From the NCBI RefSeq assembly GCF_003334255.1, contig NZ_QOWU01000022.1: a stretch of DNA of 64,000 bases; one strand, written 5' to 3'. A model generated the notes under the pieces. The model worked only from the letters and a program-made list of their open reading frames with translations. It had not been told where the DNA came from and did not search any database. This stretch comes from Escherichia coli. Lineage in GTDB: Bacteria; Pseudomonadota; Gammaproteobacteria; Enterobacterales; Enterobacteriaceae. The translations under genes and the position numbers were made by a program. Below are positions 39,322 through 41,156 of this stretch, in pieces. Each line of letters begins with the position of its first letter. The stretch's first letter is position 1.

Positions 39322-40986
39322 TCAGTTATCACGACGCACCGCCATCGAAACCGTAAAAATACCCCACTCATCAATCCGTTGTGTGCATTTATCAAATCCG
39401 GCATCACGCACGAGTGAATCCATCTCCTCTTGCGAACGCACGCGCATGACCCACGGTTTACCATCTTTATGACTGGTTAACACCCCGGCAATCAGCTCCA
39501 GTTGTGGGTGCCACCGCTGCCCGGTGTAGATGAGAATGCCGCCCGGTTCGATGGCATTGGCAAGACCTGCGAGTGAGTTTTTTACCTGCTCATTTTCGGG
39601 AAAAAGCTCATACAGGCCAGAGACAATCGCCAGCGTAGGCCGCGGAGTTAACGCGCTGAGTTCCTCCGGGTTAAACGCATCGCCCTGTTCAAAACGCACC
39701 CGCCCAGACATTCCCCGTTGAGCAATCATCTCTTGCCCCTGTGCAACATTTAACTCGCTGTAATCACGTAACAAAATATCGCTTACGGCAGGCTCGTTTG
39801 CCAGTGCATCCAGTACATAGCGCCCATGCCCTGCGGCAATGTCAACCACGCGGACGGCTAAACCTTTGGCGTGGAGATCGGCAACGGCTTGTTTAATCAG
39901 TATTTGTAAATGGGTTTTGCGCTGGCGAATACCGCGCCAGCCAACACTGTTCAGGTAGATTTTGTCGATTAAGCGCCCGAATGCGTTACTGCCTTGCGGT
40001 TGATTTTGATAGACATAATCCAGCGAACTGCCTGAATCAAAGCCAGTGCTCATTCCGAGATGCAGGCCCGCAGAGTGCGCCCCGAACAATTTCATCGCCT
40101 TTCGCATAAAGCGATACGCCAAATCAACCGGCGATAATGGCACGGGTCCACCAGAAAGGAGCCGCCATCGATCCGCTGATGGTCCTGTGCGGTCTTCATG
40201 CTGATAATCAAATTTTTGCGACTTGTTAGCATATAAACGACTAATAAAGCTTTGCATTTTTTCAAATGCCTGCGCCCTGTTCTCTTCACCCAACGTGTCG
40301 TGATAAAAGCCTGGCAGCAGATGCAGCTCTTTCAGAGGGCTACGTAATCTCTGATAAAAATCAATCTGCGGTTGACGATGCACCACATAGTCATCGCCTG
40401 ATATCAGAAGTTGCGTGGGGAGCGTAATCGCCGCCGCATCGCTAACAATACGTTCAGACGTTTTATAGAGATCGAGCAAGATATTGACGGCAATCGCCCG
40501 TGTGATCAGCGGATCATTATTGAAACTCGCCACCCGTTGCCGATCGTGGGTCAAATAGCGTCCTTTCACATAGGAATTAATAAAAAACAGACCACGCAGA
40601 CGATGCCATAACGCCAGCGCAGGACGTGCCAGCGGCACATACAATTTAACCTTAAAGGCCGGAGAAGCCAGCACCAGCCCGCGAATTGCAGGCGCATAAT
40701 CATGAACCCAAGTTGCAACCAGCACTGCGCCGACGCTTTGCGCGATCACAACCACCTCTTCCAGTCCGACATGGCTGTCGCTGGCAGCAAAACGGATAAA
40801 AATCACGATGGGCAATAGCATAAAGAGGATGGGTTGTGACACCAACATCAACAGCAATCCGGTAAGAAGAGAAAGCGCCAGTGCAGCAAGAGTGATGTGA
40901 TTCGCTGTAACGTGGTGATTATAAAGCCAAAACATCGTCGGCCTTAACAGCGACTGAAAGAGCGGTTTTATCTGGTAGAGCATCAT
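39322..40986 (-). CDS. ynbC: YnbC-like alpha/beta hydrolase-methyltransferase protein with atypical hydrophobic N-terminus (possible ynbA'-'ynbC fusion)
   Basis: ORF 39322..40992; ATG at 40986 has an AGGA Shine-Dalgarno 6 nt upstream; in-frame stop only 25 nt further upstream; AQSVG nucleophile-elbow-like motif about 85 residues in. Confidence 0.65.
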
Positions 40987-41156
40987 TATCAATCCTTGAT
41001 AATTCGGTTTGCGCTATGGTGCATCAATTCCCCTGACGGAGATATCGCAACACGCCGCTTCATTAAAAATTCAGAATATATCAAGGTATTGGGGACTCAC
41101 TGCCAGGAATGATTATCCCCAATTAATCAAATGGTTAAGAAACATTACGTTGTGGA

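What the first reader, a model, noticed from the sequence alone, without database searches (positions are those of the whole stretch)
39322..41156. About 1.5 kb of the ynbABCD locus seems absent, leaving a possible in-frame ynbA'-'ynbC chimera
From memory, K-12 has ynbA (CDP-alcohol phosphatidyltransferase), ynbB (CdsA-like), ynbC (585 aa) and ynbD (430 aa) between ydbD and azoR. Here only two genes fit. ynbD translates to exactly 430 aa from TTG 39308. The other ORF is at most 556 aa, is closed by a stop 25 nt upstream of its start, and begins with about 70 strongly hydrophobic residues before a hydrolase-like AQSVG elbow. That is what an in-frame deletion joining the 5' end of ynbA to the interior of ynbC would produce, with ynbB lost. 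The missing length (about 1.45 kb) matches ynbA plus ynbB. If correct, the putative phospholipid-headgroup operon is remodelled in this strain.
Basis: inference. Interest (0 to 1): 0.4.

Follow-up and report, generated by a model that had tools for sequence, protein, structure and literature searches.

The report
In-frame ynbA–ynbC deletion fusion allele
A 1,610-base deletion in this E. coli strain has removed most of ynbA, all of ynbB and the start of ynbC, welding the leftovers into one open reading frame; it is a real but fairly ordinary gene-loss allele shared by about 3.5% of complete E. coli genomes.

Summary
The window is 100% identical to E. coli G1/2. Compared with K-12 it lacks exactly 1,610 bp: ynbA codons 66-201, all of ynbB and ynbC codons 1-96. 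The breakpoints lie in a 5-bp microhomology (TCCGT, window 40792-40796) inside an 11-of-14 imperfect repeat. The deletion is in frame. YnbA 1-65 is joined to YnbC 97-585, giving a 554-aa ORF from the native ynbA ATG (40986), and ynbD is intact.

The chimera keeps two transmembrane helices and a complete Methyltransf_20 domain. It has lost the CDP-alcohol transferase motif, YnbB, and the oxyanion-hole half of the lipase domain. RefSeq already annotates it as two pseudogene fragments, and GenBank and UniProt hold the 554-aa protein on more than 2,000 contigs.

The same junction is in 193 of 5,426 complete genomes. It sits on several flanking haplotypes that are reshuffled exactly at the junction, and two of those haplotypes are never seen in intact loci. 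Whether the deletion arose once or repeatedly is unresolved.

The most likely reading is a loss-of-function remnant that keeps ynbD expression. Interest is low to moderate.

The parts
39322..40986 (-). Chimeric ORF ynbA'-'ynbC: 554 codons plus a TGA stop at 39324-39322, starting at the native ynbA ATG (40986). An upstream in-frame TTG at 40992 would give 556 aa.
   Evidence: The exact 554-aa protein is in public databases on 595 contigs.
40797..40986 (-). ynbA-derived part. With the shared TCCGT it makes YnbA codons 1-65: an N-terminal amphipathic stretch and two hydrophobic helices at about residues 31-49 and 52-68. The CDP-alcohol transferase motif (DGxxAR..., YnbA residue 72 onward) is gone.
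   Evidence: The chimera has no PF01066 hit.
40792..40796 (.). Crossover microhomology: ACGGA on the + strand, TCCGT on the coding strand. It is the core of an imperfect direct repeat, TTTaTCCGTaTgGC (ynbA, F63-I64-R65) versus TTTgTCCGTtTtGC (ynbC, F94-V95-R96).
40282..40779 (-). Remnant of the YnbC lipase-like alpha/beta-hydrolase domain (chimera residues 70-235). It matches Pfam Hydrolase_4 model positions 71-238 of 239 only. Ser84 (AQSVG), the Asp and the His are kept. The HG oxyanion motif and the first ~70 model positions of the fold are deleted.
39334..40257 (-). Complete Methyltransf_20 (class I SAM-dependent methyltransferase) domain, chimera residues 244-551.
   Evidence: model 1-309 of 309, E = 9e-152, the same as in K-12 YnbC.
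40993..41156 (-). Retained ynbA upstream region with the Shine-Dalgarno AAGGA (40997-40993) 6 nt before the ATG. It is collinear with the K-12 region and about 96% identical to it. In K-12 the promoter of this region is activated by BglJ-RcsB.
   Evidence: PMC3950696. The sigma-70 consensus scan found no strong match here.
38016..39332 (-). Intact ynbD (PAP2/dual-specificity phosphatase): 438 aa from GTG 39332 or 430 aa from TTG 39308. Its start overlaps the chimera's stop by 11 nt, as in K-12.

Best explanation
A 1,610-bp deletion arose between two copies of a short imperfect direct repeat, by illegitimate or slipped-strand recombination at a 5-bp TCCGT core. It removed ynbA codons 66-201, all of ynbB and ynbC codons 1-96, and fused the remainders in frame. 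The native ynbA promoter region, Shine-Dalgarno sequence and ATG are kept. If the locus is transcribed, a 554-aa polypeptide is therefore made. It would have two N-terminal transmembrane helices from YnbA, which probably leave the rest in the cytoplasm. After them comes half a lipase domain that cannot form its oxyanion hole or central sheet, followed by an intact SAM-methyltransferase domain. Translation ends at the native ynbC stop, which overlaps the ynbD start, so ynbD is spared polarity. Functionally it is a loss-of-function allele for YnbA, YnbB and the YnbC lipase. CdsA covers the YnbB role, so the loss is tolerated. The allele is an established E. coli polymorphism, not private to this strain. 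Shown: the deletion, junction, frame, domain content and prevalence. Inferred: the slippage mechanism, the topology, the lack of lipase activity and the preserved ynbD expression.
For: Junction and size. In-frame 554-aa ORF with native SD and ATG. Domain content: the chimera has Hydrolase_4 model 71-238 of 239 and full Methyltransf_20 with no CDP-OH_P_transf hit, whereas K-12 YnbC has Hydrolase_4 3-238 and YnbA has CDP-OH_P_transf at 27-175. Alignment to monoacylglycerol lipase 6eic puts the HG motif and the DxRGHGxS strand inside deleted residues 1-96. PGAP annotates two pseudogene fragments in G1/2 and every other carrier examined. Prevalence: 190-193 of 5,426 complete genomes, and more than 2,000 contigs hold an intact 554-aa chimera. 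Ongoing decay in some carriers: a 1-bp frameshift at the junction (HS-01), IS1 in the chimera (Res13), a strAB island truncating ynbA' (LHM10-1), and a ynbD internal stop (AH04). The window lineage has 4 private changes in ynbA', all nonsynonymous. Dispensability: the ynbB knockout grows normally with unchanged MPIase (PMC6362211); ynbD has no ascribed function and a strain lacking all four PAP2 genes is viable (PMC7413402); about 840 genomes lack ynbC entirely.
Against: The ORF is intact in 13 of 14 carriers sampled without regard to annotation. The allele sits on many backgrounds. The deletion-linked SNPs of the main haplotype have a nonsynonymous:synonymous ratio (6:9) like that of functional alleles. 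All three are compatible with a retained function, though a recent origin plus pre-deletion variation explains them equally well. Nothing here measures expression, folding or activity. The repeat used is unremarkable (rank 1558 of 4531 spacings), so simple slippage does not explain why this junction dominates.
Confidence: 0.8

Rival explanations
1. The fusion is a functional new gene. It would be a membrane-anchored SAM-methyltransferase, with the lipase half as a linker, kept by selection either for its own activity or because the in-frame read-through keeps ynbD expressed while YnbA/YnbB are lost.
For: The fusion is in frame with the native start and the ynbD overlap preserved. The MTase domain is complete. 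The ORF is intact in 13 of 14 blindly sampled carriers and on more than 2,000 contigs. This one junction accounts for 193 of about 200 genomes that keep ynbC 3' but lack ynbB. It is found on at least 3 azoR allele backgrounds.
Against: Half of an alpha/beta-hydrolase fold is unlikely to fold. Some carriers have disrupted the chimera further. The window type has 4 nonsynonymous and 0 synonymous private changes in the anchor. With so little post-deletion divergence, intact ORFs are expected under neutrality. The whole operon is dispensable and often absent.
Confidence: 0.15
2. Origin, version A: the deletion arose once, long ago, on a now-unsampled haplotype (H on the ynbC side, R1 on the ynbA side). 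It spread by homologous recombination, and its flanks were later overwritten by intact donors, with tract ends piling up at the 1.6-kb heterology boundary.
For: The H haplotype (about 102 genomes) and the R1 haplotype (77 genomes) occur only in deletion carriers; the nearest intact alleles are 96.7% and 97.5% identical. Private SNPs concentrate within about 400 bp of the junction. G3/10 and Res13 carry full H+R1, and other carriers keep only the junction-proximal part of H. The island SNPs are 6 nonsynonymous to 9 synonymous, as expected for variation that predates the deletion. A single junction dominates.
Against: This needs at least 7 flank replacements ending within 16-44 bp of the junction, against one ending inside the 312-bp H island. 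The window type and 14EC047 retain no H or R1 SNP at all. No Chi site is nearby.
Confidence: 0.5
3. Origin, version B: the same deletion arose independently several times at the same microhomology, which would be a mutational hotspot or convergent selection.
For: 14EC047 (deleted) differs from M8 (intact) at 0 of 2,179 flanking positions, yet differs from every other deletion haplotype within 50 bp of the junction. Its chimeric protein is on a single contig among 15 billion proteins. Left and right haplotypes are combined freely across the junction.
Against: The repeat pair is ordinary, and better repeats (perfect 11-12-mers) exist in the operon yet are not used. No bracketing inverted repeat was found. 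H, R1 and W haplotypes are never seen intact among 4,384 genomes. 14EC047 could also be a patch of 90 bp or less transferred from a D72-type donor.
Confidence: 0.4
4. Artefact: an assembly collapse, or the short form is ancestral and K-12 carries a 1.6-kb insertion.
For: None found.
Against: The identical junction is in 193 independently finished genomes and thousands of contigs. The extra 1.6 kb completes three genes, each a full-length Pfam or NCBIfam family match, and carries no mobile-element features.
Confidence: 0.01

Closest known systems
E. coli K-12 ynbABCD operon (b1408-b1411)
   Same: Same chromosomal position between ydbD and azoR, about 97.7% nucleotide identity in the retained parts, the same ynbA start and Shine-Dalgarno sequence, the same ynbC stop/ynbD start overlap, and intact ynbD.
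   Different: It lacks 1,610 bp. There is no YnbA catalytic motif, no YnbB and no YnbC residues 1-96, and a single 554-aa fusion ORF replaces three genes.
Pseudogenes formed by deletion between short direct repeats (microhomology-mediated deletion), as routinely flagged by NCBI PGAP
   Same: One repeat copy is left at the junction. PGAP labels both pieces 'incomplete; partial in the middle of a contig', and later IS insertions and frameshifts appear in some carriers.
   Different: The deletion happens to be in frame and keeps a long ORF with one whole domain. It is at appreciable frequency (3.5%) on several backgrounds instead of being a private lesion.
Monoacylglycerol lipase / Hydrolase_4 family (e.g. 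M. tuberculosis Rv0183, PDB 6eic)
   Same: The YnbC N-domain aligns over its whole length (E = 1e-14). The chimera keeps the nucleophile elbow, Asp and His.
   Different: The chimera lacks the HG oxyanion-hole motif and the N-terminal strands (Pfam model positions 1-70), so it cannot be counted as a working member.
Complete absence of the ynb-ydbD region in many E. coli (e.g. ST131)
   Same: Another natural loss of the same operon, which shows the operon is dispensable (hits H26-H30).
   Different: There the whole region from ynbD onward is missing. Here ynbD, ydbD and the MTase-encoding part persist.

Membership tests
CDP-alcohol phosphatidyltransferase (Pfam PF01066) | Conserved DG(x)2AR...G(x)3D(x)3D motif on TM2-TM3 and a domain-level HMM match | tested here: not met
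   K-12 YnbA matches PF01066 at residues 27-175. The chimera keeps only residues 1-65, ends before D72-G73, and gives no PF01066 hit.
Alpha/beta hydrolase, Hydrolase_4 / monoacylglycerol lipase type | Catalytic Ser (GxSxG-type elbow), Asp and His present | tested here: met
   AQSVG (Ser84), the GDDYV Asp and the FYHD His are retained and align to 6eic.
Alpha/beta hydrolase, Hydrolase_4 / monoacylglycerol lipase type | Complete fold, including the N-terminal strands and the HG oxyanion-hole motif | tested here: not met
   Only model positions 71-238 of 239 match, against 3-238 in K-12 YnbC. HRGHEH and DARGHGKS lie in deleted residues 1-96.
Class I SAM-dependent methyltransferase, Methyltransf_20 (PF12147) | Full-length domain match | tested here: met
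   Model 1-309 of 309, E = 9e-152, residues 244-551.
Class I SAM-dependent methyltransferase, Methyltransf_20 (PF12147) | Catalytic activity and substrate | not testable with these tools
   I found no characterised member. NCBIfam gives only a weak sub-threshold hit (19.5 bits against a 425-bit cutoff).
Phosphatidate cytidylyltransferase paralogue YnbB | Presence of the gene | tested here: not met
   tblastn finds no YnbB hit in the window. Genome counts show carriers lack the segment.
Microhomology-mediated deletion | Short direct repeat at both parental breakpoints, with one copy left at the junction and no inserted bases | tested here: met
   A TCCGT core within an 11-of-14 repeat is present in all five intact references, and a single copy is left in all carriers.
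Pseudogene (non-functional remnant) | Relaxed selection after the lesion, or no expression | tested here: inconclusive
   Some carriers show further disruption and the window type has 4N:0S. Against that, 13 of 14 ORFs are intact and the main haplotype is 6N:9S. Expression is not testable here.

The most novel reading that the evidence does not exclude
The ynbA'-'ynbC fusion is not a decaying scar. It is an old allele kept or repeatedly regenerated in E. coli because it is advantageous: it abolishes the YnbA/YnbB branch, which has been linked to synthesis of the MPIase glycolipid, while still producing a membrane-tethered methyltransferase and normal ynbD expression. The reshuffling of flanking haplotypes exactly at the junction would then reflect convergent or horizontally propagated selection on this one junction.
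Probability: 0.12. Interest if true: 0.5.

Novelty: new member of a known kind. Interest (0 to 1): 0.2.

Why it matters
For this strain, the consequence is that the accessory lipid-headgroup operon is reduced to ynbD plus a crippled fusion protein. G1/2 comes from healthy human faeces in Germany and, from my own knowledge, is a component of the probiotic Symbioflor 2. Any work on YnbB as a back-up enzyme for MPIase, or on YnbA and YnbC, cannot assume these genes are present in all E. coli. About 3.5% of complete genomes carry this allele and about 15% lack the locus.

For annotation, it shows a disagreement. GenBank and UniProt list the 554-aa chimera as a normal 'hydrolase / bifunctional methyltransferase', while RefSeq calls it two pseudogenes.

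The haplotype pattern around the junction is also a compact natural case for asking how a large heterology shapes recombination tracts, or whether specific microhomology deletions recur.

Tried and rejected
1. Hotspot by repeat quality: rejected. The pair used ranks 1558 of 4531 spacings in the operon, and perfect 11-12-bp repeats exist.

2. Hotspot by secondary structure or Chi: no inverted repeat brackets the breakpoints, and there is no Chi site in 7.4 kb.

3. Import of the allele from another species: the junction 22-mer is absent from 100,044 species-representative genomes. Only one genome per species was searched, so this is weak.

4. Strain E1620 seemed to lose homology exactly at the junction (H25). 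This was an artefact of the query: its ynbC continues 21 bp further and is then interrupted by IS1.

5. Post-deletion drift or mutagenic repair as the source of the SNP island around the junction: disfavoured for the main H+R1 haplotype, because 6N:9S departs from the roughly 70% nonsynonymous expectation (P = 0.003-0.04). It is not excluded for the window-type ynbA' changes (4N:0S).

6. The sigma-70 consensus scan of the upstream region gave no site in 40993-41156. This is uninformative, because the K-12 promoter is described as activator-dependent.

7. Literature searches for ynbA, ynbB, ynbC, ynbD and ynbABCD found no paper describing this deletion. A search on the Symbioflor strains failed on syntax and was not repeated.

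8. Structure prediction of the chimera was considered and not run, because AlphaFold confidence would not tell whether a half-domain folds in vivo.

Full report
**Identity of the window and the observation.** Window 36500-43500 is 100% identical to E. coli strain G1/2 (NZ_CP060083.1; faeces of a healthy person, Germany). It covers 7,001 bp where K-12 and most other genomes need about 8,611 bp in two BLAST pieces. In K-12 the order is hrpA, azoR, ynbD, ynbC, ynbB, ynbA, ydbD, pdxI. In G1/2, PGAP annotates only ynbD plus two pseudogene fragments between azoR and ydbD. One is a class I SAM-dependent methyltransferase family protein missing its N-terminus. The other is a CDP-alcohol phosphatidyltransferase family protein missing its C-terminus.

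**Anatomy of the deletion.**
- Pairwise BLAST places window 38001-40800 on K-12 locus 2005-4804, and window 40792-43600 on 6406-9213. So 1,610 bp are absent, with a 9-bp overlap.
- On the coding strand the two parental sequences are ...CTT TTT ATC CGT ATG GCG... (YnbA F63-I64-R65-M66) and ...GAA TTT GTC CGT TTT GCT... (YnbC F94-V95-R96-F97). The window reads ...ATT TTT ATC CGT TTT GCT....
- The exchange therefore lies within TCCGT (window 40792-40796), the core of an 11-of-14 imperfect repeat.
- The missing DNA is 411 nt of ynbA (codons 66-201 and the stop), 911 nt of spacer plus ynbB, and 288 nt of ynbC (codons 1-96).
- The ynbA and ynbC frames differ by 2 and 1,610 is 2 mod 3, so the fusion is in frame. 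It is YnbA 1-65 plus YnbC 97-585, 554 aa from the native ATG at 40986. That ATG is preceded by AAGGA at a 6-nt spacing.
An in-frame TAG closes the frame at 41016-41014.
- The chimera's TGA (39324-39322) overlaps the ynbD GTG (39332), as in K-12. TTG 39308 gives the 430-aa version of YnbD.
- tblastn finds no YnbB, YnbA C-terminal part or YnbC N-terminal part elsewhere in the window.

**What the fusion protein retains.**
- Pfam finds a complete Methyltransf_20 domain in the chimera (residues 244-551, model 1-309 of 309). It finds Hydrolase_4 only from model position 71 to 238 of 239, and no CDP-OH_P_transf.
- K-12 YnbC matches Hydrolase_4 from position 3. K-12 YnbA matches CDP-OH_P_transf at residues 27-175.
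- The YnbC N-domain aligns end to end with monoacylglycerol lipases (6eic, 3jw8; E = 1e-14 to 1e-12). The HG oxyanion motif (HRGHEH) and the DARGHGKS strand lie in the deleted residues 1-96. The nucleophile elbow AQSVG (Ser84 of the chimera), the Asp and the His remain.
- Hydropathy shows two hydrophobic segments at about residues 31-49 and 52-68.
- From general knowledge of CDP-alcohol transferase structures (cytoplasmic N-terminus, active site at the cytoplasmic end of TM2-TM3), I infer that the fused part would face the cytoplasm.
- So YnbA and YnbB activities are abolished and the lipase half-domain is almost certainly dead. The methyltransferase domain could in principle survive as a membrane-tethered module.

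**Context from the literature.**
- The ynbA promoter is one of the loci activated by BglJ-RcsB in K-12 (PMC3950696).
- YnbB is a non-essential CdsA paralogue. Its overproduction raises the glycolipid MPIase, and its knockout leaves growth and MPIase unchanged (PMC6362211).
- YnbD is a fourth PAP2 phosphatase with no ascribed function, and a strain lacking all four PAP2 genes is viable (PMC7413402).
- The paa-ydbA-ynb neighbourhood is described as a region of genomic heterogeneity (PMC4951805).
- No paper found describes this deletion.

**Prevalence.**
- A 300-bp junction probe is matched contiguously in 190 of 5,426 complete genomes, and a 100-bp probe in 193.
- The retained ynbC 3' part is in 4,584 genomes and the deleted segment in 4,384. 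This single junction therefore explains nearly all cases in which ynbB is lost but ynbC 3' is kept.
- About 840 genomes lack the locus altogether.
- Exact 554-aa chimeric proteins are on 595 contigs (window type), and on at least 1,000, 382 and 41 contigs for other variants, plus two singletons. They are named 'hydrolase', 'esterase/lipase' or 'bifunctional alpha/beta hydrolase/class I SAM-dependent methyltransferase', and one is UniProt A0A0K5XUF5.
- The allele is therefore already in databases, but annotated inconsistently.

**State of the ORF in carriers.**
- Of 14 carriers fetched without regard to annotation, 13 have the intact 554-codon frame. HS-01 has a 1-bp loss in the T5 run at the junction.
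- Two more carriers, picked because their annotation looked odd, are disrupted. Res13 has IS1 in the chimera, and LHM10-1 has a strA-strB/IS1133 island replacing ynbA' beyond window-equivalent 40825.
- AH04 has an internal stop in ynbD.
- Given the small divergence since the deletion, intact ORFs are expected without selection, so this does not discriminate between the readings.

**Haplotype structure.** Comparing 19 carriers with four intact references gave several results.
1. 14EC047 (deleted) is identical to M8 (intact) at all 2,179 flanking positions compared.
2. The window matches intact ECONIH4 on the ynbC side near the junction. On the ynbA side it carries four private, all nonsynonymous, changes (T2M, K23N, A50S, L62I) that are absent from every intact genome; the best intact match is 98.6-98.9%.
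3. A ynbC-side haplotype 'H' (about 102 genomes) and a ynbA-side haplotype 'R1' (77 genomes) occur only in deletion carriers. Their nearest intact alleles are 96.7% and 97.5% identical.
4. The private SNPs cluster within about 400 bp of the junction.
5. For H+R1 the private SNPs are 6 nonsynonymous to 9 synonymous. That is unlike the neutral expectation (about 70% nonsynonymous; P = 0.003-0.04) and like polymorphism among intact alleles (32:38).
6. Left and right haplotypes are combined freely across the junction: full H or proximal H with R1; H with 2015C-like or ECONIH4-like; K12-like with R1; ECONIH4-like with W; and M8 with M8.

**What the haplotypes imply for origin.**
- G3/10 and Res13 carry full H+R1, the likely original deletion haplotype.
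- A single old origin followed by erosion of the flanks explains the island and the dominance of one junction. It also requires many recombination endpoints within 16-44 bp of the junction.
- Independent recurrence explains 14EC047 well. It does not explain why H, R1 and W are never seen intact, or why an unremarkable repeat is reused.
- That repeat ranks 1558 of 4531 spacings, has no bracketing inverted repeat and has no nearby Chi site.
- The junction 22-mer is absent from 100,044 species-representative genomes.
- I leave this open, at roughly 50:40.

**Verdict.** It is a microhomology-flanked deletion that produced an in-frame ynbA'-'ynbC fusion. RefSeq already flags it as pseudogenic, and it is common in E. 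coli. The best-supported reading is a tolerated loss-of-function allele of an accessory, poorly understood lipid operon, one that incidentally preserves ynbD. A retained or new role for the membrane-tethered methyltransferase, or selection for this particular junction, is not excluded (about 12-15%). Interest is low to moderate. The most interesting residue is the junction-centred haplotype pattern.

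Noticed in passing
window 44595-50300 (- strand): An uninterrupted 1,901-aa autotransporter-like ORF with a long PVPPDDGGDT repeat tract sits at the position of ydbA. PMC4951805 describes ydbA as an autotransporter pseudogene in MG1655, with full-length versions in only a minority of strains.
   Followed up: no
L012 (LHM10-1) 3926-7392; window-equivalent 40825: In a carrier of the window-type junction, a strA-strB (aph(3'')-Ib / aph(6)-Id) and IS1133 resistance island replaces everything upstream of ynbA' codon ~54. 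Chromosomal resistance DNA has landed inside the remnant.
   Followed up: partly
L003 (HS-01), window-equivalent 40798: A 1-bp loss in the T5 run immediately next to the junction frameshifts the chimera after residue 62, giving stop codons from about residue 79.
   Followed up: yes
L017 (Res13) window-equivalent 40562-40569; L007 (E1620) 8377-10242: IS1 insertions lie in the ynbC part of a deletion carrier (Res13), and two IS1 copies break up ynbC and ynbB in an otherwise intact-type locus (E1620). IS1 also truncates ydbD in D72 and AH04.
   Followed up: partly
L009 (M8), L005 (14EC047), L006 (HS30-1), L018 (CP53), L019 (H7): ydbD: The neighbouring ydbD (DUF2773 bactofilin) is annotated as frameshifted in several strains, both with and without the ynb deletion. 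It is intact in the window (41157-43463).
   Followed up: no
L010 (O55:H7 USDA5905) 2424-4180: ynbC is frameshifted in this O55:H7 genome although the operon is otherwise complete. This is another independent route of decay at the locus.
   Followed up: no
protein cluster of P0001: The 90%-identity cluster holding the 554-aa chimeras has a 768-aa representative and mostly YdbD (DUF2773 bactofilin) members. The chimera is unrelated to YdbD, so this looks like a clustering artefact, perhaps through a read-through ORF.
   Followed up: no
window 40803, 40839, 40918, 40982 (ynbA' part) and 41103: The window lineage (17-19 genomes) has four private substitutions in 186 bp of ynbA', all nonsynonymous, plus one intergenic. 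That is about ten times the density of private changes in its ynbC part. The cause is unexplained: drift in a shielded segment, an unsampled allele, or adaptation of the anchor.
   Followed up: partly
NZ_CP060083.1, NZ_CP060061.1, NZ_CP060057.1, NZ_CP060075.1 (G1/2, G6/7, G8, G3/10): Four strains from the same German healthy-faeces series carry the deletion on two different haplotypes: window type in G1/2, G6/7 and G8, and full H+R1 in G3/10. From my own knowledge these strain names match the components of the probiotic Symbioflor 2.
   Followed up: partly
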